From a virus, in the IMG/VR virus record IMGVR_UViG_3300028299_000006, positions 6,758-70,757 of that record: a stretch of 64,000 nt of DNA. One strand, given 5' to 3'. A program made the translations under genes and the position numbers. How positions within the stretch are numbered: position 1 is the stretch's first letter; every line of letters begins with the position of its first letter. The notes under the pieces are model-generated. The model ran no database searches. It saw only the letters and a program-made list of their open reading frames with translations, and had not been told where the DNA came from. Of the stretch, positions 28,915 to 43,542 are shown one piece after another.

Positions 28915-29538
28915 ATGGATAATATAACTATAATAAATAATTTGATTCATCACATAAAACATGGTGAATTGGAATGGAATCATTATAAAGATGATCCAGA
29001 TATGGGATCTTCATATGAAGAACACTTTGTTACTAGGTATAATATAAAAGAGACTAAAAAATCTTTCCGAATAGTCGTTACTCAAAGATTTTTGAATAAA
29101 GGTGGTGGTAATAATTATTATATGAGTATGTATATTGATAAAAAAATAGGAAAAACTATTAGTACCACAAAATCTAGAACATTATACTACTCTGATTATC
29201 ATGATATTTTTTTGATATTTGTACTTATAAAATATAAATATTACTTAAAACATAATATTGGTGATCAACGATATATTGAGTTTTTAAAAAGGCAAACAGA
29301 ATCCAATAATATTAAATGGGAAAAAACTTCAGAATATTCATATATATCCTATATTGTGGATCATCCATCTTCACCAAAAGAAAAATTTTGTATCAAGGTA
29401 TACAAAAATTCCGCAAATTTTCTTATAAGAAAATGGAGTGGTTTGGGTAATGAAGATACCGCGATTAGTTATATAAATAACACGAATGATTTATTTGATT
29501 TTATAAAAAAATATAAATTTGATGAATCAGAAGGATAG
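28915..29538 (+). CDS. Tandem paralog 1 of a duplicated-domain family
   Basis: LI....L.W...E...Y.I...K pattern twice; YY.D...IF.LF..IKYKY linker. Confidence 0.7.
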   Translation: MDNITIINNLIHHIKHGELEWNHYKDDPDMGSSYEEHFVTRYNIKETKKSFRIVVTQRFLNKGGGNNYYMSMYIDKKIGKTISTTKSRTLYYSDYHDIFLIFVLIKYKYYLKHNIGDQRYIEFLKRQTESNNIKWEKTSEYSYISYIVDHPSSPKEKFCIKVYKNSANFLIRKWSGLGNEDTAISYINNTNDLFDFIKKYKFDESEG

Positions 29539-30106
29539 AGGTAAGATAATAAGTAGATTGATGGAATCTGTTCGTAATAACAAGTTACAATGGGAATATT
29601 ATTATAATAGTTTTGATGAGGAAAGATACACTTGTTTATACCTTATAACTAAAAATAAAAATGTTAGAATAGAATTAACTCAAAAGAAATTAAGTGGTAA
29701 TTATGGGTATAATTATTATGTTTATATTTTTATTGATAAAGAAAGAAGTAGTACGCCAATAATTAAAATGTATTACAATGATTATCCAGATATTTTTAAA
29801 TTATTTATATTTGTTAAATATAGATATCATTTAGATTCTTTGGGTAGAGAGAATTTCATTGAAAAATTAAAAAAAGAAACATTATCTAGTAGAATTAAAT
29901 GGATTAAAAATCAATATTATTATGTAGGAATTATAATAAAAGAGGATAAACCAGATGATGTTTTTCAAATATGCGTCTATAAAAATATTATATATCTTAG
30001 TATTTCTCCAAAAACTAATTTATCTACCCATTTCGTTGTAAACCATTTTGAAACTGACTTATACGAGTTTTTAGAAAAAAATATTGAATCAAAAGATGTT
30101 GAATAA
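29519..30106 (+). CDS. Tandem paralog 2
   Basis: Same motifs as 28915. Confidence 0.7.
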   Translation: MMNQKDRGKIISRLMESVRNNKLQWEYYYNSFDEERYTCLYLITKNKNVRIELTQKKLSGNYGYNYYVYIFIDKERSSTPIIKMYYNDYPDIFKLFIFVKYRYHLDSLGRENFIEKLKKETLSSRIKWIKNQYYYVGIIIKEDKPDDVFQICVYKNIIYLSISPKTNLSTHFVVNHFETDLYEFLEKNIESKDVE

Positions 30107-30662
30107 TGATAAAATATTAAAAAATCTGATAGAAAAGGTTGAAAATAGTGAATTATCCTGGACTCGTAATATTATTGGAGATAGTACAGAATCATATACT
30201 TGTGATTATAATATAACAAAAGATAAGATTTTCAAAATTGAAATTTATCAAACTAAATTATGTCACGGATATAATTATTATATATATTTAAGTATGACAA
30301 AAAATGGTAATAGAATAAAGAAAGGTACAAAACATAGAATATATTATCAAGATAATCACGAAATTTTTAAATTATTCTTATTGATAAAATATAAATATTA
30401 TTTAAGTATATTTGGAGAACGTAGATATATAGAACAATTAAAAGAGGATACATTATCTAGTGAGATGAAATGGAGAAGTCATGGACTTTTTTTTACCACT
30501 GATTTAATAAATTGTGATCAACCAAAAGAACAATTTTGTTTATATGTTTGGAAAGGTAAAGTGGTTATTTTTAGTTTAAAAAAAGACAAATTTATCAAAG
30601 ATGAAATAAATTATATTAACGATAGAGGCCTTTATGAATTTTTAAAAAATAATGTTGAATAA
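30084..30662 (+). CDS. Tandem paralog 3
   Basis: Same motifs as 28915. Confidence 0.7.
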   Translation: MNQKMLNNDKILKNLIEKVENSELSWTRNIIGDSTESYTCDYNITKDKIFKIEIYQTKLCHGYNYYIYLSMTKNGNRIKKGTKHRIYYQDNHEIFKLFLLIKYKYYLSIFGERRYIEQLKEDTLSSEMKWRSHGLFFTTDLINCDQPKEQFCLYVWKGKVVIFSLKKDKFIKDEINYINDRGLYEFLKNNVE

Positions 30663-31270
30663 TGAAGATATTTTCTAAATTTAGTACTGAAGATTTTGTT
30701 AGAAACTTAATAGATAAGATTAATGATATAAACTGGAAAAAATCTGTAAATATTCATAATGATGAAATATTTAGCTTTCTTGAAAAAGTTTCCGATAAAA
30801 AGTCATTTAGAATTCAAGTTCATCAAAAAGAGACACCTAGAGTTGGATTCTATAACTATCTAATTGAAATTTATATAGTTACACTAGAGAGAATAAAAAA
30901 AGTAAAGACAATTTATTATTCAGAAGTTAACAATATTTTTCATTTGTTTTTAAAAGTGAAATATAAATATTTTATTGATAAGTATGGAGAAGATGATATT
31001 ATAAACGAAATAATAGTGTTAACAAAACACAAAGAAATAAAATGGCGAAAGATACCATGGGAATATGATGGTGTAAAAGTTTTAGTAAATAAATCATTTT
31101 ATTATGAATCAGATATAGTCAGTGTATCAACTCCAACTAAAACACTTAGAGTATCTGTTTATAGAGATGTTATGTATATGAAACTAGTTAGTGAAGATTT
31201 AACTATTCATAAACCAATAAATACAGTTAGATCTGATTTATATTCATTTTTAAAAGACTTTGGAATTTAA
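30662..31270 (+). CDS. Tandem paralog 4
   Basis: Same motifs as 28915. Confidence 0.7.
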   Translation: MKIFSKFSTEDFVRNLIDKINDINWKKSVNIHNDEIFSFLEKVSDKKSFRIQVHQKETPRVGFYNYLIEIYIVTLERIKKVKTIYYSEVNNIFHLFLKVKYKYFIDKYGEDDIINEIIVLTKHKEIKWRKIPWEYDGVKVLVNKSFYYESDIVSVSTPTKTLRVSVYRDVMYMKLVSEDLTIHKPINTVRSDLYSFLKDFGI

Positions 31271-31384
31271 ACACAATCACAACGTAAAATATTGATTTGC
31301 GTAGAAACAACTATATTTTCAGTGTAGTCGTGGATTTGGAATAGCTTCACGAAACACATATAAGAAAAATATTAGAAACAATAA

Positions 31385-31416
31385 TTTGGAGAATTAAAAA
31401 ATTGTTCGTATCTTTG
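31385..31416 (+). promoter_or_regulatory. Bacteroidota-type housekeeping promoter (-33 TTTG, -7 TAnnTTTG)
   Basis: TTTG 31385-31388, 20-nt spacer, TATCTTTG 31409-31416; similar -7 boxes near 17946, 22042 and 37557. Confidence 0.6.
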
Positions 31417-31491
31417 TATAACAAAAATGGAAAAAATTGACTTTTTTCCATAACTATATAAAAGCGAAGTCAAAAAATAATATTAATAATT

Positions 31492-31665
31492 ATGAAAATT
31501 AAAAAAGTTGATGAATTTGGAAAGGTAACAGAAGAGTTAGATATGGCTGACCCTAAGAATAAACTAAATAAAAATATAGTTGATTCTAGATTACAGAATA
31601 TTGAAATCAAAAAAGAATTAAAAGCAGCGATAAATCAATTACTAAGAGTAATAGATAAATTATAA
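31492..31665 (+). CDS. Small hypothetical protein, 57 aa (missing from ORF track)
   Basis: MKIKKVDEFGKVTEELDMADPKNKLNKNIVDSRLQNIEIKKELKAAINQLLRVIDKL. Confidence 0.55.
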   Translation: MKIKKVDEFGKVTEELDMADPKNKLNKNIVDSRLQNIEIKKELKAAINQLLRVIDKL

Positions 31666-31722
31666 AAAAATAAACTTTTTTAATAAAAGAAATATAAATA
31701 AATAAATTTGGAGGATTATAAA

Positions 31723-31800
31723 ATGATTAATTATTCACAAACAGGTAGACAGAGAACAGCCGTGGGGCAAACAGTCCCAACGACTGGTTGTACTATTTGA
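31723..31800 (+). CDS. Putative attenuator leader peptide MINYSQTGRQRTAVGQTVPTTGCTI
   Basis: GGAGGA SD at 31710-31715; stop codon inside the antiterminator 5' strand; codon content mirrors the downstream tRNAs. Confidence 0.75.
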   Translation: MINYSQTGRQRTAVGQTVPTTGCTI

Positions 31801-31871
31801 GTGTGGATGAACAAGCACTTTTCCCCCAATATATAGTCTGGTAAAACAGGCACCCACCATCCACACTCAAA
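31796..31871 (+). promoter_or_regulatory. Antiterminator stem (perfect 14 bp)
   Basis: TTTGAGTGTGGATG (31796-31809) is the exact reverse complement of CATCCACACTCAAA (31858-31871). Confidence 0.8.
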
Positions 31872-31898
31872 CCCCTCAAAAGGTTTGAGTGTTTTTTT
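31863..31898 (+). terminator. Intrinsic terminator, mutually exclusive with the antiterminator
   Basis: ACACTCAAACC / GGTTTGAGTGT stem, 8-nt loop, T7 tract 31892-31898. Confidence 0.85.
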
Positions 31899-31929
31899 AG
31901 GGGGATAGGTAAAAAAAACAAATAAACAA

Positions 31930-32070
31930 ATGGCAAAAAAAGTAGTAGCAGGTTTTAAGGAAAAGGGAGTTGGAAAGGAATATGTTAAGTTAATAACAAT
32001 GGTTAAAGGTAGGAGTGGGGGATGGAAATTTTTAGAGAAAATTGTAAGAAAAGATGAAATAATAAAATAA
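31930..32070 (+). CDS. DUF4295 / ribosomal protein bL38-like protein, 46 aa (missing from ORF track)
   Basis: MAKKVVAGFKEKGVGKEYVKLITMVKGRSGGWKFLEKIVRKDEIIK fits the Bacteroidota MAKK.VA...K.I.MVK...G...F.E pattern. Confidence 0.75.
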   Translation: MAKKVVAGFKEKGVGKEYVKLITMVKGRSGGWKFLEKIVRKDEIIK

Positions 32071-32073
32071 AAT

Positions 32074-32156
32074 GCCTGGTTCGCATAGTGATCGATTGCG
32101 CTGGATTTGTAACCCAGATCTGAAAAGACTCGTCAGTTTGAATCTGACACCAGGCT
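32074..32156 (+). tRNA. tRNA-Thr(UGU) with long variable arm
   Basis: GCCTGGT/ACCAGGC acceptor; CTGGA-TTTGTAA-CCCAG anticodon arm; GTCAG-TTTGAAT-CTGAC T arm. Confidence 0.75.
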
Positions 32157-32168
32157 CTGTAAATTTTT

Positions 32169-32882
32169 TTGGCTCTTGTTTTTTACTATATACATATAAA
32201 AACAATGAAATGGAATGATGATAAAGTAAAAGAGTTGAAAAAATTATTGAAAGATAATAAAACATACAAAGATATTGGTGAATATTTTAATATAACACCA
32301 CATTCAGTTAAATGTAAGATTCGTAAAATGAATCTTATATATAACAAACCAGTTAAAACTGAGGATAAATTTGTATGTTTGACATGTAATGAAGAGTTCT
32401 TTGATAAGTATGATAGAAAATTTTGTAGTAAATCTTGTTCTACGATTTATAATAATAGAAAACGAAAGATTATTAAATTTTGTTTGAATTGTAATGTGGA
32501 ACTAAGTAGAAGTAATAGAAAATTTTGTTCAAATAAATGTCAAAATGATTATGAATATTCAACATTTATAACAAAATGGAAAAATGGTGAGTTAAGTGGA
32601 ACAAGAGGAAATTACGGTACTTCAAGTAATATTAGAAGATATTTATTTGAAAAGTATGATAACAAATGTTCAAAATGTGGATGGGGGGTAATTAATGAAT
32701 ACACAGGTAAAATACCATTAGAAATTGAACATATTGATGGAAATAGTGAAAATAACAAAGAGGAAAATTTGACATTATTGTGTCCTAGTTGTCATTCATT
32801 AACAAAAACATATAAGGGTGCAAATAGAGGTAACGGTAGACATAATAGGAGAAAGAGATATTTGGAAAATAAATCATATTAA
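32169..32882 (+). CDS. HNH endonuclease with HTH and zinc-ribbon repeats (start probably MKWNDD)
   Basis: CSKCGW...LEIEHIDGNSENN..ENLTLLCPSCH. Confidence 0.88.
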   Translation: MALVFYYIHIKTMKWNDDKVKELKKLLKDNKTYKDIGEYFNITPHSVKCKIRKMNLIYNKPVKTEDKFVCLTCNEEFFDKYDRKFCSKSCSTIYNNRKRKIIKFCLNCNVELSRSNRKFCSNKCQNDYEYSTFITKWKNGELSGTRGNYGTSSNIRRYLFEKYDNKCSKCGWGVINEYTGKIPLEIEHIDGNSENNKEENLTLLCPSCHSLTKTYKGANRGNGRHNRRKRYLENKSY

Positions 32883-32910
32883 GGTTCTTTGACATATTGG
32901 AATAAAAAAT

Positions 32911-33012
32911 GAATGGGTGGCGGAAACGACATACGCACCAGACTCTAAACTGGAGTGGAATTATAGGAACGAGATAACTACCACAATACGGGTTTAAACC
33001 CCGTCCCATTTA
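32911..33012 (+). tRNA. Leu-type tRNA body with CUA anticodon (amber suppressor-like or degenerate)
   Basis: GAATGGG/CCCATTT acceptor, A73, CCAG-ACTCTAAA-CTGG arm, about 34-nt variable arm, ACGGG-TTTAAAC-CCCGT. Confidence 0.55.
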
Positions 33013-33018
33013 CAAATT

Positions 33019-33319
33019 CGGGATGTAGTTCAGTTGGCTAGAATACGCGGTTTGGGTCCGTGAGGTCGTAGGTTTAATGTTTGGACCCCTTTGATAGTAA
33101 TATCAAAATGAAAATCGGATGAATTGCTGGAAATCTAAGTTCGTGAGAATATGACAATCAGCAGCCAAGCTTTTGGTACACCAAAAGAAGGTTCAGAGAC
33201 TAGTGGAGAGATATAGTTCTCTTAATAACCACATAAGCGTCCGACATCCATTTATGGATGATGATATAGTCCAATCCTTATAGAAATATAAGGTAAGATT
33301 GCGAGTCCTATCATCCCGA
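33019..33319 (+). tRNA. tRNA-Pro(UGG) split by a group I intron in the T-loop (exons 33019-33074 and 33302-33319)
   Basis: CGGGATG/CATCCCG acceptor; CGCGG-TTTGGGT-CCGTG; joined T arm GTAGG-TT/CGAGT-CCTAT. Confidence 0.88.
33075..33301 (+). ncRNA. Group I intron, 227 nt, no ORF, at tRNA position 55/56
   Basis: P GAATTGCTGGAAA, Q AATCAGCAGCC, R GTTCAGAGACTA, S GATATAGTCC; follows U, ends in G; GGACC can form P1 with exon GGTT. Confidence 0.88.
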
Positions 33320-33324
33320 CATTT

Positions 33325-33593
33325 GGCCCCATAACATAACGGATAATGTACAAGTCTTTAAGAGAGGAGCTTTTATTGAGAAATTAATAAAATGGAATCT
33401 GTCAAATTCGGGGAAACCTTTAAAATGGTAATCCCGAGCCAAATCTCGAAAGAGAGAGGTGTAGAGACTAGACGGCAGACACCTAAGTTGTAAAATAAGG
33501 TGAAGGGATAGTCCAGACCACAAACAGAAATGGCAATAAAAATTGTAGTGGTAAGCTAAACTTGAAATCTAGGTTCGATTCCTAGTGGGGTCA
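33325..33593 (+). tRNA. tRNA-Arg(UCU) split by a group I intron in the anticodon (exons 33325-33358 and 33556-33593)
   Basis: GGCCCCA/TGGGGTC acceptor; joined CAAGT-CTT/CTAA-ACTTG; CTAGG-TTCGATT-CCTAG. Confidence 0.85.
33359..33555 (+). ncRNA. Group I intron, 197 nt, no ORF, at tRNA position 34/35
   Basis: P CAAATTCGGGGAAA, Q AATCCCGAGCC, R GTAGAGACTA, S GGGATAGTCC; terminal G. Confidence 0.88.
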
Positions 33594-33603
33594 CAAAATT
33601 AAC

Positions 33604-33680
33604 GAGGGCGTGGCCGAGCGGTCTAAGGCAACATTCTGCAAAAGTGTTTATAATCGTGGGTTCGAATCCCCCCGCCCTCT
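33604..33680 (+). tRNA. tRNA-Cys(GCA)
   Basis: GAGGGCG/CGCCCTC acceptor, U73, CTGCAAA loop, TTCGAAT. Confidence 0.9.
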
Positions 33681-33689
33681 CGAAATTAA

Positions 33690-33748
33690 AGAATACGAAC
33701 AGCAAATTAAAAGAAAATAGGCAAAACTTTCAACAAGACCGTATTCTG
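33690..33748 (+). ncRNA. ACAGCAAA stem motif, copy 1
   Basis: AGAATACG-AACAGCAAA...CGTATTCT-G; similar to 45359 and 45517. Confidence 0.55.
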
Positions 33749-33786
33749 TAAAGTTCTTTGACATATTTAATACAATAAATATCATT

Positions 33787-33842
33787 GCGCCATTAGCTCA
33801 GAGCCAGATTTGCCTTCCACATTTGGATATTCTCATGGCGTT
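33787..33842 (+). pseudogene. Degenerate tRNA-Gly-like remnant
   Basis: GCGCCAT/ATGGCGT acceptor and TAGCTCAGAGC, but D loop and T arm are lost. Confidence 0.45.
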
Positions 33843-33848
33843 CAAAAT

Positions 33849-33922
33849 GCAATAGTAGCTTAGTTGATTAAAGCGTAGCCTTGCCAAGGCTAAGATCGTG
33901 AGTTTGATCCTCACCTATTGCT
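33849..33922 (+). tRNA. tRNA-Gly(GCC)
   Basis: GCAATAG/CTATTGC acceptor; TAGCC-TTGCCAA-GGCTA. Confidence 0.9.
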
Positions 33923-33981
33923 CAAAATTCAACTATTATTTTGAGCTCCTTATTTTTTATATATAGAATTAAAAACTTATT

Positions 33982-34662
33982 ATGAAAAAATGGAATCAAG
34001 AAGATATAGAAAAATCTATTTCATTGCTAAAAAATGGTAAATCTTATGATGAAATAGGATTAATATTAGGAAGGAATGGTCAGTCAGTAAGATGCAAAAT
34101 AAGAAAATTTGGGATAAAATCTATAGATTATAGAAAGTTTGAAAAAGATAAAGAAAAAAAATGCTTGAATTGTGGTAACTTAATTTATGGGTATAAAAAG
34201 TTCTGTAATAATTCATGTTCAGCAATTTATAATAATATGAAAAGAAAAAAGGTTAGATATTGTTTAAATTGTGGTAACAAAATAGATAAAGGAATAAAAT
34301 ATTGTTCTGGTAAATGCCAGTTAGATTATCAGTATAATGATTATATAAAAAGATGGAAGAATAATGAAGTAGTGGGTAATAAAAAACCAGATGGTATTTC
34401 AAATTATATTAGAAAATATATTTTTGAAAAGTATGAGAATAAGTGTTGTAAATGTGAATGGCAGAAATTTAATAAACATACTAATAAAGTTCCATTACAA
34501 ATAGACCATATAGATGGTAACTATATGAATAATAAAGAAGAAAATTTGAGATTATTATGTCCAAATTGTCATTCATTAACAGAAAATTATGGTGGTAGAA
34601 ATAAAGGAAATGGGAGAAAATATAGACAAGAATGGAGAAATAAAAAGCGAGATGTAGCTTAA
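33982..34662 (+). CDS. HNH endonuclease, paralog of 32169; stop overlaps the next tRNA
   Basis: CCKCEW...LQIDHIDGN..NN..ENLRLLCPNCH. Confidence 0.88.
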   Translation: MKKWNQEDIEKSISLLKNGKSYDEIGLILGRNGQSVRCKIRKFGIKSIDYRKFEKDKEKKCLNCGNLIYGYKKFCNNSCSAIYNNMKRKKVRYCLNCGNKIDKGIKYCSGKCQLDYQYNDYIKRWKNNEVVGNKKPDGISNYIRKYIFEKYENKCCKCEWQKFNKHTNKVPLQIDHIDGNYMNNKEENLRLLCPNCHSLTENYGGRNKGNGRKYRQEWRNKKRDVA

Positions 34663-34719
34663 TGGATGAAAGCGTTGCCCTTCCAAGGCAAAGACGGGGT
34701 TCGATTCCCACATTTCGCT
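34647..34719 (+). tRNA. tRNA-Gly(UCC), atypical (possible 8-bp acceptor and 4-bp T stem)
   Basis: GCGAGATG/CATTTCGC; TTGCC-CTTCCAA-GGCAA; GGGG-TTCGATT-CCCA. Confidence 0.75.
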
Positions 34720-34795
34720 CAATGTGTCGGTATTCCCTGATTAATTTCAAATTATCGGTCTCGCTGGACAGAACGCGTCTGATTCCAGCCAACAC

Positions 34796-34869
34796 GCGGG
34801 GTTAGCTTAACAGAGTAAAGCGTCTAGTAATTCCAACTAGGAGATGAAGTTCAACCCTATCACCCCGCT
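34796..34869 (+). tRNA. tRNA-Gly-like gene with irregular anticodon and T arms (possibly pseudo)
   Basis: GCGGGGT/ACCCCGC acceptor, U73, CTAGTAATTCCAACTAG arm, bulged T stem. Confidence 0.55.
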
Positions 34870-34874
34870 CAAAT

Positions 34875-34947
34875 TGACCATTAGCGCAATTGGTAGAGCG
34901 TCAGATTTTGATTCTGAAGGTTGAAGGTTCGAGTCCTTCATGGTCAA
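34875..34947 (+). tRNA. tRNA-Gln(UUG)
   Basis: TGACCAT/ATGGTCA acceptor (U1-A72); TCAGA-TTTTGAT-TCTGA. Confidence 0.9.
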
Positions 34948-34980
34948 CAAATCTAATAAAATTTAATAAAATAAAATAAG

Positions 34981-35121
34981 ATGAGTAAAAAGGATATAAG
35001 AAAGAAATATAAATGTGGTGAAGTTATGGAATATGGAGTACTTTACTCAACAGGTAGATGGCTTAAAAGATATTTTGAAAAACGAACAACAAAACGGAAA
35101 CATAAAAAAATCTACGAGTAA
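34981..35121 (+). CDS. Small basic protein, 46 aa
   Basis: MSKKDIRKKYKCGEVMEYGVLYSTGRWLKRYFEKRTTKRKHKKIYE, ending just before tRNA-Glu. Confidence 0.5.
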   Translation: MSKKDIRKKYKCGEVMEYGVLYSTGRWLKRYFEKRTTKRKHKKIYE

Positions 35122-35196
35122 CGCCCGTTCGTCTAGTCGGTCTAGGACGCGAGATTCTCATTCTCGAAATCATCGGTTCGAATCCGATACGGGTGA
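35122..35196 (+). tRNA. tRNA-Glu(CUC)
   Basis: CGCCCGT/ACGGGTG acceptor; CGAGA-TTCTCAT-TCTCG. Confidence 0.9.
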
Positions 35197-35200
35197 CACT

Positions 35201-35275
35201 GGGGGTTGGGACTGCTAGGGTGGTCATCTCGCTTGCACCGAGAAAATCAGAGGGTTTCGAATACCCTAACCTCCA
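35201..35275 (+). tRNA. tRNA-Ala(UGC)
   Basis: GGGGGTT/AACCTCC with G3-U70; TCTCG-CTTGCAC-CGAGA. Confidence 0.85.
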
Positions 35276-35281
35276 CAAACG

Positions 35282-35353
35282 GGTCCCATCGTTCAAGGGA
35301 TAGGATGGAAATTTCCTAAATTTCTGATACTGGTTCGATTCCAGTTGGGATCA
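35282..35353 (+). tRNA. tRNA-Arg(CCU)
   Basis: GGTCCCA/TGGGATC acceptor; GAAAT-TTCCTAA-ATTTC. Confidence 0.9.
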
Positions 35354-35367
35354 CAAAAAGGAACTGA

Positions 35368-35571
35368 GAGAGAGTTATTTTTGCTTTTATTGATAAAAAA
35401 ATAGCTTTAGAGATAGACGGTAGAACACATGATGATGTAGATGTAATAGAAAAAGATAAAAAGAAAACAATTTTTTTAGAATCAAAAGGGTGGGCAGTTT
35501 ATAGAATAAAATGGTTTAATGATAGCAAACATTATGATAGATTAAAGGCTTTCATAGTTCAAGTGGTTTAG
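35368..35571 (+). pseudogene. C-terminal remnant of a Vsr/DUF559-type endonuclease
   Basis: No clear start; FAFIDKKIALEIDGRTH...KDKKKTIFLESKGWAVYRIKW. Confidence 0.7.
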
Positions 35572-35621
35572 AATGATAATTCGGTATGTTATAGATATCA
35601 GTTCGAATCTGATTGAAAGCT
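35548..35621 (+). tRNA. tRNA-Thr(GGU) with unusual C33
   Basis: GCTTTCA/TGAAAGC acceptor; ATAAT-TCGGTAT-GTTAT; TTCGAAT. Confidence 0.8.
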
Positions 35622-35727
35622 CAAGAACAAAAACACTGGAATTGCAAAACTAACAGTGAGACACCCACTAGCTTGCATGGGATTAAGTTAACCGCCACGG
35701 AAATGTCTTTAGTTTTTGTTCTAATTT

Positions 35728-35800
35728 GGGAGATTAGCTCAATTGGAAGAGTACTTGCGTTACATGCAAGGTGTTACTGGTTCGAGTCCAGTATCTCCCA
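35728..35800 (+). tRNA. tRNA-Val(UAC)
   Basis: GGGAGAT/ATCTCCC acceptor; CTTGC-GTTACAT-GCAAG. Confidence 0.9.
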
Positions 35801-35885
35801 CAAAATGATTAGGTTAGATTTGAAGGCCTGTCTTGCCCCATAGATTCTTAGAACAGAAAAAGATAAATCTATCCTAATCAAAAAA

Positions 35886-35960
35886 GCACCCTTAGCTCAG
35901 TCGGTTCAGAGCATTACTTTAACACGGTAGGGGTCGATGGTTCGAATCCATCAGGGTGCA
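35886..35960 (+). tRNA. tRNA-Val(AAC)
   Basis: GCACCCT/AGGGTGC acceptor; TTACT-TTAACAC-GGTAG; TTCGAAT. Confidence 0.8.
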
Positions 35961-35971
35961 CAAAAAATTCT

Positions 35972-36046
35972 GGGGGTTGGGACTGCTAGGGTGGTCATTT
36001 CATTCGCATTGAAAAAATCAGAGGGTTTCGAATACCCTAACCTCCA
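35972..36046 (+). tRNA. tRNA-Ala(CGC)
   Basis: Body identical to 35201 except the anticodon arm TTTCA-TTCGCAT-TGAAA. Confidence 0.85.
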
Positions 36047-36057
36047 CTCGGTTCAAA

Positions 36058-36954
36058 TTGGAATTTTTCCACTTTTTTATTTTAATATATAGTTGTATGA
36101 AAAAGTGTAAAAATATTGAATGTAATAATGAGGTTAATAAGAATAGAACATATTGTTCTTTGAAGTGTAGAAATATTTATGTAAATAAGTACCTAAGAGA
36201 CTACAATAAAAATTCTGAAGGACTAAAGAAAAAAAGTAAAGAATTAGAAGAAGAGTACAATAAAAGTCCCAAAAAATGCAAATATTGTAATGAGATAATA
36301 CCTTTTGATAAAAAAACAAATTCTTATTGTAATTCATCTTGCATGGCATCACATACAAACAAATTTAAAATTGGACTCAAAAGAAATTTTAGTGAAGAGG
36401 GATTAAAGAATATACAAGAAGCTAATAGAAAAAGAAGAGAATTACCAGATTATTATGATAATCCAAATAGATGTACGAATTGTGAAAAAGGTTTAGAATA
36501 TAAACGTAGAGATTGTAATTTTTGTGATAATCAATGCAAGAAAGAATATTTTTCAAAAAATCGAGAAGACTACAAGATTTATCATTCTTTAACAAAATTT
36601 AAATTTAATTTAGCCGATTATAAAGATGAATTTGATTTTGAATTATTAGAAAAATATGGAATTTACAAAGCTAGCAATAATGGAGATAATTTGAATGGTG
36701 TGAGTAGAGACCATAAATTTTCAGTAAAGGAAGGATTTAGAAGATTAATAAATCCATTATTATTATCACATCCAGTAAATTGTGAGTTACTAAAACATAA
36801 TGATAATATAAGTAAACTTGATAAATGTTCAATAACAATAGAAGAACTTTTGGATGAAATAAATAAATTTGATAATAAATATGGTAGATATTATAATGAC
36901 GAGTTAAAAATATTTATATCTACTGATGAAATGAAAGAATTATCAACAACTTAA
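36058..36954 (+). CDS. Zinc-ribbon repeat, HNH-like endonuclease (start probably 36097)
   Basis: Repeated CxxC...YCSxxC units; SRDHKFS...HPVNC...HNDN. Confidence 0.7.
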   Translation: MEFFHFFILIYSCMKKCKNIECNNEVNKNRTYCSLKCRNIYVNKYLRDYNKNSEGLKKKSKELEEEYNKSPKKCKYCNEIIPFDKKTNSYCNSSCMASHTNKFKIGLKRNFSEEGLKNIQEANRKRRELPDYYDNPNRCTNCEKGLEYKRRDCNFCDNQCKKEYFSKNREDYKIYHSLTKFKFNLADYKDEFDFELLEKYGIYKASNNGDNLNGVSRDHKFSVKEGFRRLINPLLLSHPVNCELLKHNDNISKLDKCSITIEELLDEINKFDNKYGRYYNDELKIFISTDEMKELSTT

Positions 36955-42157: not shown

Positions 42158-43312
42158 CTACACTAAAAATCTAGTTTCTACGCCACAAGCACAATGTAAC
42201 CATTCACTTTGAGTGACGCTGGGTTGGTTCCTCAACCCAATTTTCTTTATATTTATAGCAGCATTTATGTCTCTATCGTGTTTTTCGTTACATTTAGGAC
42301 AAATCCATTTTCTATTATTTAAAGTTAAATCTTTATTAATTGTTCCACAAGAACTACAAGTTTTTGATGATGGATCAAATCTACCTATTATTGAAAGGGT
42401 TTTTCCATACCAATCACATTTATATTCAATCATAGATTTAAATTCATTCCATCCCATATCACTTATTGCTCTTGCTAATTTATGATTTTTAACCATACTA
42501 GACACATTAAGATCCTCCATACAGATTGTATCATAATCATCAACCAAATATTTACTTATTTTGTGTAAATAATCCTGTCTTTGATTTCTTATATGTTCAT
42601 ATAAAAGAGAAATTTTCATTTTTTGTTTTTGATAATGTTTAGAATCTTTTTGTTTTCTTGTTAAGGATCGCTGTTCAATTCTTAATTTATTCATAGCAGA
42701 TTTAAAGAAATCGTGGTTCTTGAATTTCTTTCCATCTGAAGTTATACAGAAATCTTTTATACCTAAATCTAAACCAACTGATGTGCTTTCTTTTATTTCT
42801 CTTTTATCAGGTTTTAATTCACTAGTATCAATAAGTATAGACACATAATATTTATTAGTGACTGATTTACTTACAGTTACAGTTTTAATTTCACCTTTAA
42901 ATTCTCTATGTAAATCAATTCCAACCAATTTTAATTTAGGTATGAAGATTTGTTTTTTATTTTCTAAATATACTCCTTGTGGTAATTGAAATGATTGTTT
43001 TCCAAATTTTCTTTTAAATTTGGGAAAACCACCACCTCTAAAAAAATTTGTGTAGGCATTATCCAGATTTCTTAAACTCATTTGTAATGCCTGTGAAGGA
43101 CTTTCTTTTAACCAAGGACATTCGGTATCTTTAAGTTCTTTAATTTGATTTGATAAATCAATGCAGGTATAATTTTTTTTATTTCCTATGTAAGCACTAA
43201 TTTTTGTTTCTAGACCAAGGTTATAGACAAATCTAACTTGTCCAAAAATATGAGACATCAATTTTTTTTGTTCCTGATTTGGATATATTCTATATTTGTA
43301 TGATTTTAACAT
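42158..43312 (-). mobile_element. tnpB: IS200/IS605-family TnpB RNA-guided nuclease gene (no TnpA seen)
   Basis: YKYRIYPN, RuvC GLDLG / MEDL / DRDINAA, CSSC..CPKC zinc finger; right-end-like GTAGTGGTTCA at about 42151. Confidence 0.9.
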
Positions 43313-43417: not shown

Positions 43418-43493
43418 CGCCCGTTCGTCTAGTCAGGTCTAGGACGCAAGGTTTTCATCCTTGAAATCAGGAGTTCGAATCTCCTACGGGTGA
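43418..43493 (+). tRNA. tRNA-Glu(UUC)
   Basis: CGCCCGT/ACGGGTG acceptor; CAAGG-TTTTCAT-CCTTG; TTCGAAT. Confidence 0.9.
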
Positions 43494-43542
43494 CACTTTA
43501 CAAAACTTTCTTGAATAAAAAATTATTTCATAAATAAATTCT

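What the first reader, a model, noticed from the sequence alone, without database searches (positions are those of the whole stretch)
31710..36046. Leader-peptide attenuator that appears to sense tRNA failure and control the phage tRNA operon
Seen: GGAGGA SD (31710) and a 25-codon ORF (31723-31800, MINYSQTGRQRTAVGQTVPTTGCTI). Its stop lies inside TTTGAGTGTGGATG (31796-31809), which pairs perfectly (14 bp) with 31858-31871. That strand overlaps the 5' arm of an 11-bp terminator with a T7 tract (31863-31898). Codons 6-24, 19 in a row, encode only Gln, Thr, Gly, Arg, Ala, Val, Pro and Cys. These are 8 of the 9 sense amino acids served by the array (Glu is the exception). Lys, Leu, Glu, Phe and Asp, which are abundant in this proteome, are absent. 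Established: ribosome-mediated attenuation as in the trp, his and thr operons. Inference: a ribosome reaching the stop masks the antiterminator, so transcription ends; stalling at earlier codons (host tRNAs cut by anticodon nucleases, or uncharged) frees it and the bL38-like gene and tRNA array are transcribed. I know of no described multi-amino-acid attenuator governing a phage tRNA cluster.
Basis: partly seen in the sequence, partly recalled or inferred. Interest (0 to 1): 0.93.

Follow-up and report, generated by a model that had tools for sequence, protein, structure and literature searches.

The report
Leader-peptide attenuator gating phage tRNA genes
A tiny translated test gene wired to a switchable transcription stop sits in front of this lake phage's tRNA genes and is spelled from the amino acids those tRNAs carry, so the phage probably makes more tRNA only when ribosomes run short of them.

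Summary
A 25-codon ORF (31723-31800) lies in a GC-rich island of a 23% GC phage contig. Three mutually exclusive helices follow: 1:2 (-29.7 kcal/mol), 2:3 (14/14 bp, -23.4) and a 3:4 terminator with T7 (-15.4). A bL38-like gene and the tRNA array lie behind it.

The attenuator reading is supported by comparison. Five homologous leaders in related phage contigs keep the ORF, with every internal indel 3 nt long, and keep the antiterminator and terminator. In two of them the first tRNA starts about 20-45 nt after the terminator.

A search blind to amino acids over 65 sources gave 24 distinct leader/array pairs. Leader residues match the tRNAs of their own array at 0.49, against 0.30 for other arrays (0 of 100,000 permutations). 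Examples are a Ser-rich leader before Ser tRNAs and a Lys-rich leader before Lys tRNAs. GC-richness alone does not explain the window's 19-codon run (0 of 5,000 shuffles).

Not supported or not shown:
- The GGAGGA as a Shine-Dalgarno site.
- Anticodon nucleases as the trigger.
- Control of the whole array.
- Translation and termination in vivo.

Five library searches found no description in print. Earlier notes of this scan report the same kind of element on other phage DNA.

The parts
31409..31416 (+). Promoter-like -7 box TATCTTTG (Bacteroidota type TAnnTTTG) ahead of the 57-aa ORF; a possible upstream start of the transcript
   Evidence: Motif scan. An RNA-library contig begins at 31422, but contigs cannot show a start.
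31492..31665 (+). 57-aa ORF of no known family, upstream of the leader; no terminator lies between it and the leader
   Evidence: No relative found in viral contigs.
31703..31710 (+).
   Evidence: Other leaders have a TAnnTTTG 23-106 nt upstream of their ATG.
31723..31800 (+). Leader ORF of 25 codons, MINYSQTGRQRTAVGQTVPTTGCTI, with its stop TGA inside region 2
   Evidence: 18 of its 24 codons after the ATG are readable by tRNAs of the array under standard wobble.
31731..31751 (+). Region 1, the 5' strand of the anti-antiterminator hairpin 1:2 (whole hairpin 31731-31809, -29.7 kcal/mol); it lies under leader codons 3-10
   Evidence: MFE. Partners of region 2 are 31731-31746.
31796..31809 (+). 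Region 2, TTTGAGTGTGGATG; it pairs either with region 1 or with region 3
31858..31871 (+). Region 3, CATCCACACTCAAA; 14/14 bp with region 2 (antiterminator, -23.4 kcal/mol); it overlaps 9 nt of the terminator's 5' arm
   Evidence: pair I18; duplex -23.4.
31863..31898 (+). Intrinsic terminator: 11-bp stem (31863-31873 with 31882-31892, -15.4 kcal/mol), 8-nt loop, T7 tract 31892-31898
31930..32070 (+). bL38-like (DUF4295) 46-aa gene, the first gene behind the terminator and 31 nt after the T tract
   Evidence: Pfam PF14128, E 2e-12. Phage-context relatives are in L122-L125, L141 and L156.
32074..32157 (+). First tRNA of the array: tRNA-Thr(UGU), 84 nt with a long variable arm
   Evidence: ARAGORN. 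Rfam tRNA model 45.2 bits at G000:38831-38913, which is window 32074-32156.
32911..36047 (+). Rest of the array: CUA-anticodon tRNA-like; tRNA-Pro(UGG) and tRNA-Arg(UCU), each split by a group I intron; then Cys, Gly(GCC), HNH gene, Gly(UCC), an odd tRNA at 34796-34869, Gln, Glu(CUC), Ala(UGC), Arg(CCU), Thr(GGU), Val(UAC), Val(AAC), Ala(CGC)
   Evidence: HNH genes are at 32202-32882 (Pfam HNH) and 33982-34662; the second is called by likeness to the first in the ORF list and was not scanned.

Best explanation
The element is a ribosome-mediated (leader-peptide) transcription attenuator. It gates the bL38-like gene and at least the first part of the phage tRNA array.

Transcription starts at a Bacteroidota-type promoter: the TAAATTTG box 20 nt before the ATG, or the box upstream of the 57-aa ORF. 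A ribosome then translates the 25-codon leader.

- No ribosome on the leader: region 1 pairs with region 2, the 3:4 terminator forms and transcription ends at the T7 tract.
- Fast translation to the stop codon, which lies inside region 2: region 2 is covered, 3:4 forms and transcription ends.
- The ribosome waits for an aminoacyl-tRNA at one of the early codons (about codons 4-13: Y S Q T G R Q R T A): region 1 is covered and region 2 is free. Region 2 forms the 14-bp antiterminator with region 3, and RNA polymerase reads through into the bL38-like gene and the tRNA genes.

The leader is spelled from the codons that the downstream tRNAs read. The loop therefore measures the supply of the same tRNAs that it controls. 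It is a multivalent feedback: supply falls short, more phage tRNA is made.

Shown here: the ORF, the three competing helices and their energy order, conservation of this layout in relatives, and the statistical match of leaders to arrays.

Inferred: translation of the leader, termination at about 31895, stalling as the signal, and how far read-through extends. The physiological trigger is open. It could be demand by phage protein synthesis, or loss of host tRNAs.
For: **Anatomy of the window**
- Energies run in the order that attenuation needs: 1:2 -29.7, 2:3 -23.4, 3:4 -15.4 kcal/mol.
- Without a ribosome the MFE is 1:2 plus the terminator.
- With a 26-nt ribosome mask, P(terminator) is 0.98 with no ribosome and 0.98 at the stop codon. 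It is 0.06-0.17 for a hungry codon at 5-8, and 0.08-0.11 at 12-13.

**Need for read-through**
- The terminator is the only strong + strand terminator in 31300-36300.
- Only 31 nt separate the T tract from the bL38-like start.
- By the ARAGORN coordinates, the first tRNA of relatives starts about 20-45 nt after the terminator stem in L169 and L158. Read-through is then the only visible route to those tRNAs.
- Among all 28 pipeline candidates, the offsets listed are under 90 nt in eleven (17 to 87 nt).

**Homologues**
- L141, L156, L123, L158 and L169 carry leaders of 34-37 codons, such as MNNIRRNTTVATTTTAPVTGGRPAMDSGVLYLFE.
- Each is followed by an antiterminator, a terminator, and then tRNAs for Pro, Thr, Arg, Ala, Val and Gly.
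- L158 and L169 have no bL38 gene between the terminator and the tRNAs. The leader therefore goes with the tRNAs.

**Coding signature**
- In alignment A6 all 4 internal gap blocks inside the ORF are 3 nt long. Gap blocks after the stop codon are 10, 8, 4, 2, 1 and 3 nt.

**Antiterminator in A6**
- 86% of cells are paired, against 25-53% when the partner strand is slid.

**Tracking of leaders to arrays**
- The pipeline was blind to amino acids. It looked for a terminator, an overlapping antiterminator and a short ATG ORF, over 65 sources.
- It gave 28 candidates with a same-strand tRNA within 2 kb, and 24 after clustering similar peptides.
- Mean own-array fraction is 0.49 against 0.30 for other arrays, with 0 of 100,000 permutations as high.
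- At codon level the figures are 0.416 against 0.244, again 0 of 100,000.
- Without the window and the T/A/V/G/P/R family, n = 20 and again 0 of 100,000.
- Own-array fraction exceeds the pooled expectation in 22 of 24.
- At geometrically defined sensor codons: 155 of 242 = 0.64 for the own array, 0.29 for other arrays. At the other codons: 0.44 and 0.31.
- Examples: MKVMNTTSSSSSSRSSNKIRRW before Ser, Ser; MMTTVIIKKSISIKIKKLNEWDIFA before four Lys tRNAs; MTQTFKHSKHFSSSSKW... before His, Phe, Lys, Trp, Ser.

**The window alone**
- 0 of 5,000 dinucleotide shuffles reach a run of 19 served codons.
- The window's leader has Gln x3 and Cys x1, and its array has Gln and Cys tRNAs. The five relatives have neither in the leader, nor in the parts of their arrays that I hold.

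**RNA**
- Contigs from two metatranscriptomic libraries bridge the terminator (31731-32032 and 31839-31987). This is only a weak hint, because these are contigs and DNA carry-over is not excluded.
Against: - No experiment exists. Translation of the leader, 3' ends at the T tract and regulated read-through are all unobserved.
- The window's own leader has no close relative in what I could fetch, so its particular helices have no covariation support.
- The covariance model built from the five relatives does not find the window's leader (E > 10). Its kinship with them rests on layout and context.
- Equilibrium folding of the relatives mostly keeps the terminator whatever codon is masked. A truncated-transcript model was uninformative. 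For the relatives the switch is therefore argued from geometry, not from energy.
- Covariation in the five-sequence antiterminator is modest: 2 pairs with compensatory change, and 15 of 500 shuffles reach the score.
- Four of the 12 sensor codons of the window (I, N, Y, S) have no tRNA in the array.
- The array's two Glu tRNAs have no codon in the leader.
- GCC has no standard-wobble reader in the array.
- The array is interrupted by two HNH genes and holds promoter-like TAnnTTTG motifs at 32366, 32374, 34419, 35376 and 35815. About four would be expected by chance. Distal tRNAs may therefore have their own promoters.
- The compared loci were reached through a shared tRNA motif, so they come from related phages. 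Clustering by peptide likeness removes only part of that relatedness.
- The pipeline demands the ORF and the antiterminator. Their presence in its hits is by construction; only the amino-acid match is an independent result.
- 14 of 31 array starts had no pipeline leader.
Confidence: 0.8

Rival explanations
1. The terminator/antiterminator switch is real but is not read by a ribosome. The GC-rich leader RNA would bind a ligand, a protein (for example the bL38-like product, as in ribosomal-protein autoregulation) or a tRNA directly (T-box-like). The ORF would be incidental.
For: The island is strongly structured (z -4.7). The first gene behind it is a ribosomal-protein homologue. In L141, L156, L123, L158 and L169 a nucleotide block (CCCGT..AACA..GGCA..CCAGC) is invariant, third codon positions included.
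Against: - No Rfam family matches, T-box and riboswitches included, even at E up to 10.
- All 4 indels inside the ORF are 3 nt long, while those behind it are not.
- The element occurs without a bL38 gene in L158 and L169.
- Leaders before other arrays share no common RNA core, yet each matches its own tRNA set at the amino-acid and codon level. A ligand or protein sensor does not predict this.
- A direct multi-tRNA sensor of up to 16 specificities in about 100 nt has no precedent.
Confidence: 0.07
2. There is no regulation. The hairpin with T7 simply ends the upstream transcription unit (the 57-aa ORF), the 14-bp complement is a chance by-product, and the short ORF and its composition follow from GC-rich structured RNA in an AT-rich genome.
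For: GC-rich sequence does favour Gly, Ala, Arg, Pro, Thr and Val codons, and the leader uses GC-rich synonymous codons (GCC, GTG, GGG, ACG). The tRNA set also happens to be one of GC-rich codon boxes.
Against: - Shuffles that keep dinucleotide content never reach the run of 19 (0 of 5,000).
- Other GC-rich stretches of the window reach only 11-13.
- The 14/14 complement extends 5 bp beyond what regions 2 and 4 share.
- Leaders rich in AT-type codons (Lys, Asn, Ile, Ser, Phe) match arrays of exactly those tRNAs, which a GC effect cannot produce.
- In relatives the tRNAs start about 20-45 nt behind the terminator, with no room for a promoter.
Confidence: 0.05
3. The short ORF is translated and matched to the array, but it acts otherwise than by classic attenuation. 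For example, translation of the leader could protect or expose the precursor for RNase processing. It could control Rho-type polarity. Or the released leader RNA or peptide could act in trans.
For: - Equilibrium folds of the relatives do not switch when a ribosome is placed on the leader.
- In L141-type leaders the ORF runs 27 nt past region 2.
- Attenuator-derived sRNA and peptide functions are reported for trpL of Sinorhizobium. I saw only the abstracts listed (PMC6614838, PMC7298713).
Against: For the window, the geometry (stop codon inside region 2), the energy order and the masked folds fit the classic scheme without extra assumptions. The amino-acid match is concentrated where stalling would free region 2.
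Confidence: 0.06

Closest known systems
Multivalent leader-peptide attenuators of enterobacterial amino-acid operons (thr: Thr/Ile; ilvGMEDA: Ile/Val/Leu), and trp, his, leu, pheA leaders (textbook knowledge, recalled)
   Same: A short translated leader, with regulatory codons in or next to region 1. Three competing helices 1:2, 2:3 and 3:4, ending in an intrinsic terminator. A stop codon placed so that a finishing ribosome blocks region 2. Stalling gives read-through.
   Different: - The controlled genes here are tRNA genes plus a ribosomal-protein homologue, not biosynthetic enzymes. The sensor therefore measures its own product.
- The leader samples 8 amino acids in the window, and up to about 16 in L162, mostly without codon runs.
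- The host is a phage of a probable Bacteroidota host.
- No Rfam leader family matches.
pheST (pheM leader) attenuation of phenylalanyl-tRNA synthetase in E. coli (recalled, not looked up)
   Same: A leader-peptide attenuator that controls a component of the translation apparatus according to the supply of charged tRNA.
   Different: It controls a synthetase, for one amino acid, in a cell. Here the tRNA genes themselves are controlled, for many amino acids, in a phage.
T-box riboswitches
   Same: Both are transcription attenuators with a terminator/antiterminator choice that report on tRNA status.
   Different: A T-box binds one uncharged tRNA directly through a specifier codon and the T-box bulge, without translation. 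Here there is no T-box match, no bulged antiterminator, and an ORF under coding constraint.
Inducible long tRNA array (trn operon) of Anabaena sp. PCC 7120 (PMC8421152 and PMC10272220; passages read)
   Same: A supernumerary, horizontally spread tRNA array that is silent by default and induced when translation is impaired.
   Different: Regulation there acts at the promoter, through direct repeats over the -10 box and a repressor (TrcR). Neither text holds the words attenuat-, leader peptide or terminator. It is cellular, not phage.

Membership tests
Ribosome-mediated (leader-peptide) transcription attenuator | Short ORF with a start codon in the leader transcript, upstream of the regulated genes | tested here: met
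   The ATG ORF 31723-31800 has 25 codons. Five relatives have ORFs of 34-37 codons in the same place.
Ribosome-mediated (leader-peptide) transcription attenuator | Intrinsic terminator between the leader ORF and the regulated genes | tested here: met
   An 11-bp stem plus T7 at 31863-31898, with the regulated gene 31 nt behind it.
Ribosome-mediated (leader-peptide) transcription attenuator | An antiterminator (2:3) mutually exclusive with the terminator, and an anti-antiterminator (1:2) overlapped by the ORF | tested here: met
   2:3 is 14/14 bp and overlaps 9 nt of the terminator arm. 1:2 is the MFE hairpin under codons 3-10. Energies are -29.7, -23.4 and -15.4 kcal/mol.
Ribosome-mediated (leader-peptide) transcription attenuator | A stop codon placed so that a ribosome completing the leader covers region 2 | tested here: met
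   The TGA at 31798-31800 lies inside region 2. P(terminator) is 0.98 with a ribosome at the stop. In L141-type leaders the ORF runs through region 2 and ends 27 nt later.
Ribosome-mediated (leader-peptide) transcription attenuator | Leader enriched in codons that relate to the function of the regulated genes | tested here: met
   18 of 24 codons are readable by array tRNAs. 0 of 5,000 shuffles reach the run of 19. The leader/array match across 24 pairs is reached by 0 of 100,000 permutations.
Ribosome-mediated (leader-peptide) transcription attenuator | The leader is translated, and read-through responds to the supply of charged tRNA | not testable with these tools
   The only support is indirect. 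Indels of 3 nt suggest coding constraint. RNA-library contigs bridge the terminator.
T-box riboswitch | Stem I with a specifier loop, the conserved T-box sequence in a bulged antiterminator, and a match to Rfam's T-box model | tested here: not met
   No T-box or other cis-regulatory family is reported at gathering score or at E up to 10. The antiterminator is a perfect 14-bp helix without a bulge.
Rfam amino-acid operon leader families (the Thr, His, Trp and Leu operon leaders; family names recalled) | A match to the family's covariance model | tested here: not met
   The scan of all 4,227 Rfam families gave no such match in 31650-32100, even at E up to 10.
Phage tRNA-array leader family defined here by model R1 (L141, L156, L123, L158, L169) | A match to the covariance model R1 | tested here: not met
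   The window's leader is not among the 46 matches at E up to 10. It shares the layout, the context (bL38-like gene, odd tRNA-Thr, the same tRNA set) and a short in-frame block (V-x-T-T-G), but not detectable sequence homology.

The most novel reading that the evidence does not exclude
This would be one member of a widespread, undescribed class. Large phages would put each block of tRNA genes under closed-loop control by a codon-matched 'test strip' leader. A ribosome samples, in one pass, every codon family the block decodes, and opens a terminator when any of them is slow. Leader and array would co-evolve by gain and loss of whole codons. Examples seen here are Thr codons gained and lost between L123 and L158, CGT with tRNA-Arg(ACG) in L169, and Gln and Cys in the window. 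The loop would let the phage replace host tRNAs on demand, including when the host or the phage itself destroys them.
Probability: 0.6. Interest if true: 0.93.

Novelty: new variant of a known kind. Interest (0 to 1): 0.88.

Why it matters
As far as I could find in print, tRNA genes are regulated at promoters (growth rate, stringent control, repressors). Attenuation by a translated leader is the textbook control of amino-acid operons and of one synthetase.

A leader that is spelled from the codons of the tRNA genes behind it would be a direct feedback sensor of decoding capacity. It would be multivalent for up to a dozen or more amino acids.

It would explain how large phages dose their tRNA arrays. 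It would give a sequence rule, leader content, for predicting which tRNAs in an array are functional and co-expressed. It would also offer compact natural parts that report the supply of chosen tRNAs.

The idea is directly testable in a coupled transcription-translation system with defined tRNA pools.

Tried and rejected
**Searches that led nowhere**
- A 14-base pattern of region 2 in viral contigs gave 120 or more chance hits.
- A two-arm pattern of the window's antiterminator gave 0 hits.
- The 57-aa upstream protein had no relative in viral contigs.
- blastn and tblastn against the phage records found nothing.
- The two-sequence bL38 alignment found nothing in viral contigs.
- The leader pattern in genome contigs gave one hit, L210, which lies inside an ABC-F-type gene of a bacterial contig with no tRNAs. 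I rejected it as chance.
- The odd-tRNA D-arm pattern gave 6 loci, and I saw no leader directly upstream in the stretches printed. The pipeline later called leaders elsewhere in two of them, L151 and L155.

**Models that did not help**
- Covariance model R1 does not find the window's leader.
- RNAalifold on the three- and six-sequence MAFFT alignments that include the window was poorly aligned. I did not use it for claims.
- A truncated-transcript equilibrium model was uninformative. The antiterminator arm is often predicted paired even without a ribosome.
- Equilibrium masking shows the switch for the window and partly for L164 (second leader) and L207, but not for L158, L169 and L175.

**Readings rejected**
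- T-box, riboswitch or any other Rfam family.
- tmRNA (ARAGORN).
- Shine-Dalgarno use by this phage (1 of 70 ORFs).
- The pipeline hit at 42781-42825 (MCFLLFLFYQVLIH before tRNA-Glu). It overlaps the tnpB gene on the other strand and has no Glu codon. I take it for a false positive, but kept it in all tests, together with other doubtful hits (L183, and L155 at 4515), so the tests are conservative.

**RNA runs**
- Parts of 30500-36500 without RNA-library cover, most of the tRNA array included, say nothing.

**Not used or not available**
- Structure and complex prediction were not used.
- Supplements of the papers were not opened. The supplements of PMC8421152 (promoter mapping) could bear on the comparison with Anabaena.

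Full report
**What is there**

The window is part of a 70.8-kb virus record that CheckV rates at 10% complete. It is about 23% GC.

Positions 31700-31900 form a GC-rich island of 37-46% GC, against 14-28% around it.
- GGAGGA at 31710 and an ATG at 31723.
- A 25-codon ORF ending with TGA at 31798-31800.
- A perfect 14-bp complement between 31796-31809 and 31858-31871.
- An 11-bp terminator with a T7 tract at 31863-31898.

The RNA folds far better than shuffles (z -4.7). Rfam finds nothing here, even at E up to 10.

Behind the terminator lie a 46-aa DUF4295/bL38-like gene (E 2e-12) and a tRNA array. The array runs: Thr(UGU), a CUA-anticodon tRNA-like gene, Pro(UGG) and Arg(UCU) each split by a group I intron, then Cys, Gly x2, Gln, Glu, Ala x2, Arg(CCU), Thr(GGU) and Val x2.

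**The switch**

The minimum-energy fold without a ribosome is a long hairpin (region 1, 31731-31751, with region 2, 31787-31809) plus the terminator.

Taken alone, the three competing helices are worth -29.7 (1:2), -23.4 (2:3) and -15.4 kcal/mol (3:4). This is the order that classic attenuation needs.

I placed a 26-nt ribosome mask with each codon in turn in the A site and computed the probability of the terminator helix:

| Ribosome position | P(terminator) |
|---|---|
| none | 0.98 |
| hungry codon 5-8 | 0.06-0.17 |
| hungry codon 12-13 | 0.08-0.11 |
| codons 16-20 | 0.96-0.98 |
| codons 21-22 | 0.78-0.81 |
| codons 23-25 | 0.97-0.98 |
| stop codon | 0.98 |

Codons 9-10 give 0.95-0.96, through an alternative pairing.

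**Relatives**

The phage record database and most pattern scans gave nothing.

An alignment of the bL38-like protein found 28 metagenome loci. Twenty-three are bacterial: 22 have rpmG directly upstream, and in L135 the held upstream DNA is too short to show it. Five are AT-rich and phage-like: L122-L125 and L141.
- L141 has a 37-codon ORF (MMNTVNIITTTTATRPVGTTGRPAVLGVLTLSKFLIM) upstream of its bL38-like gene. It has the same 1:2, 2:3, 3:4 layout and a T7 tract. Behind it lie tRNA-Pro(UGG) and the same odd long-arm tRNA-Thr(UGU) as in the window.
- L123 has a third copy.
- A wider bL38 alignment found L156.
- A leader pattern found L158.
- A tRNA motif scan found L169 among 52 phage tRNA loci.

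In L158 and L169 there is no bL38 gene. By the ARAGORN coordinates the first tRNA begins about 20-45 nt after the terminator stem. The leader therefore belongs to the tRNA array, and the tRNAs can only be reached by reading through the terminator.

Their arrays hold tRNAs for Pro, Thr, Arg, Ala, Val and Gly. The leader cores are made of those six amino acids.

**Is the ORF coding?**

In the alignment of the five relatives, all 4 internal gap blocks inside the ORF are 3 nt long. Those behind the stop codon are 10, 8, 4, 2, 1 and 3 nt.

L123 and L158 differ by loss of GTC and ACT and gain of ACCACA, that is, by whole codons. L169 replaces AGA by AAC-CGT and has a tRNA-Arg(ACG) in its array.

The antiterminator is kept in 86% of cells, against 25-53% when the partner strand is slid. 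Only 2 pairs show compensatory change.

**Does leader content track the array?**

Model R1, built from the five relatives, missed the window. Its weak matches turned out to be short ORF/terminator units with quite different peptides in front of other tRNA blocks.

I then wrote a search that is blind to amino acids. It asks for:
- a perfect terminator stem with a T run;
- an upstream segment pairing at -8 kcal/mol or better with a stretch that overlaps the terminator's 5' arm;
- an ATG ORF of 10-61 codons, counting the ATG, ending between that segment and the terminator.

Over the window and 64 phage loci (65 sources) it gave 49 hits. Twenty-eight have a same-strand tRNA within 2 kb downstream, and 24 remain after clustering similar peptides.

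| Test | Own array | Other arrays or permuted | Permutations as high |
|---|---|---|---|
| Amino-acid level, 24 pairs | 0.49 | 0.30 (permuted 0.306, sd 0.023) | 0 of 100,000 |
| Codon level, standard wobble | 0.416 | 0.244 | 0 of 100,000 |
| Without the window and the T/A/V/G/P/R family, n = 20 | 0.489 | 0.314 | 0 of 100,000 |
| Sensor codons | 155 of 242 = 0.64 | 0.29 | 0 of 100,000 |
| Remaining codons | 209 of 480 = 0.44 | 0.31 | not tested |

Own-array fraction exceeds the pooled expectation in 22 of 24 pairs. Sensor codons are those where the ribosome footprint overlaps region 1 but not region 2.

Telling examples:
- A leader with eight Ser before Ser(UGA) and Ser(GCU).
- A Lys-rich leader before four Lys tRNAs. 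It stands 3.4 kb behind another leader, rich in Asn, His and Thr, that precedes Asn, His and Thr tRNAs (both in L164).
- A leader with F, K, H, S and W before His, Phe, Lys, Trp and Ser tRNAs.

Doubtful hits were kept in all tests. Of 31 array starts with 500 nt or more of upstream DNA held, 17 have a pipeline leader within 2 kb.

**The GC objection**

A structured RNA in an AT-rich genome is GC-rich, and GC-rich codons encode Gly, Ala, Arg, Pro, Thr and Val. The leader does use GC-rich synonymous codons.

But dinucleotide-preserving shuffles of 31723-31900 never reach a run of 19 served codons (0 of 5,000, maximum 16). The GC-rich tRNA/intron stretch reaches 11-13. Leaders made of Lys, Asn, Ile, Ser and Phe codons match arrays of those tRNAs, which a GC effect cannot do. 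The served set is 25.8% of the window's proteome.

The phage does not use Shine-Dalgarno sites: 1 of 70 ORFs of 100 aa or more has an SD-like core upstream. The five relatives have no conserved SD.

The GGAGGA overlaps TAAATTTG (31703-31710), a match to the TAnnTTTG -7 box. That this motif is the Bacteroidota promoter type is recalled knowledge. Of the 28 candidates, 14 have such a box 20-106 nt before the ATG. The GGAGGA may therefore lie at or before the transcript start.

The absence of SD sites, the promoter type and the bL38 homologue point to a Bacteroidota host. This is an inference.

Demand-driven feedback is the simpler reading.

How far control reaches is open. Two HNH genes and five promoter-like motifs lie within the array.

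**RNA evidence**

Two metatranscriptomic runs hold part of the stretch. Laid on 30500-36500, one contig of each bridges the terminator (31731-32032 and 31839-31987).

These are assembled contigs of low depth. They show no ends and no strand, and DNA carry-over is not excluded. They are a weak hint that read-through RNA exists.

**Comparison with what is known**

The mechanism is that of the trp, his, thr and ilv leaders. Every sequence-level defining feature is met, while translation and regulated read-through could not be tested. It is not a T-box or any other Rfam family.

What is new is the target and the logic. The controlled genes are tRNA genes, and the leader samples many amino acids.

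Five full-text searches found no paper on attenuators before tRNA genes or arrays. I read only the listings of those searches. In PMC2965389 I read the passages that mention tRNA, and none concerns this.

The nearest case in print is the inducible tRNA array of Anabaena, which is controlled at its promoter by a repressor. I read passages of PMC8421152 and PMC10272220, and neither holds the words attenuat-, leader peptide or terminator.

Earlier notes of this scan describe the same kind of element on other phage DNA. I had reached the result before reading them. They are unchecked AI notes and do not count as independent evidence.

**Verdict**

Confidence in the attenuator reading is 0.8.

It is a new variant of a known kind of control. 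It appears not to be in print, and it is directly testable.

Noticed in passing
window 32074-32157; L141 1202-1288; L156 5382-5464 and 6253-6336: A tRNA with anticodon UGU (Thr) and a long, type-II-like variable arm (83-87 nt) recurs in related phage arrays. It follows the bL38-like gene directly in the window and follows a tRNA-Pro in L141. Its D-arm sequence occurs in 6 further viral contigs, and the 4 whose printed stretches show a TGT anticodon loop also have an enlarged variable region. A long-arm Thr tRNA is unusual, and its charging identity is unknown.
   Followed up: partly
window 31930-32070; L122-L125, L141, L156: A phage-borne homologue of the Bacteroidota ribosomal protein bL38 (DUF4295) turns up in seven AT-rich, phage-like contexts counting the window. 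In five of them a tRNA gene follows within 300 nt. The bacterial copies sit behind rpmG.
   Followed up: partly
window 33019-33319 and 33325-33594: Two adjacent tRNA genes, Pro(UGG) and Arg(UCU), are each interrupted by a group I intron (Rfam 121 and 89.5 bits). Removing the introns by coordinates gives ARAGORN-clean tRNAs.
   Followed up: yes
window 34796-34869 and 32911-33012: Two tRNA-like genes pass Rfam's tRNA model (35.8 and 34.2 bits), but ARAGORN does not call them. The first seems to have an oversized anticodon loop.
   Followed up: partly
L164 (minus strand, 1463 nt behind its first leader's terminator) and L176 (3708 nt behind its leader's terminator): ARAGORN calls tRNAs with anticodon UUA (reading the stop codon UAA) inside leader-gated arrays of two other large phages.
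   Followed up: no
window 28915-31270: Four tandem paralogous genes of about 190-207 aa stand directly upstream of the leader region. The one scanned, 30662-31270, has no Pfam match.
   Followed up: no
window 32202-32882 and 33982-34662; L141 1456-2153: Free-standing HNH-type endonuclease genes are interspersed among the tRNA genes of the window. The first has a Pfam HNH match. The second, and an ORF in L141, were called by likeness only.
   Followed up: no
Leaders in L164, L170/L186, L189, L125, L168, L208: Many of the otherwise different leaders begin with a similar motif, M-x-(T/N)-x-N-I-H-I-N or close to it (AAYAUACAUAU at RNA level). This suggests a shared 5' module, either a pause hairpin strand or a conserved N-terminus, in front of a variable, array-matched middle part.
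   Followed up: no
window 42158-43312 (minus strand): An IS605-type OrfB/TnpB gene lies in the phage contig, next to tRNA-Glu(UUC) at 43422-43494.
   Followed up: no
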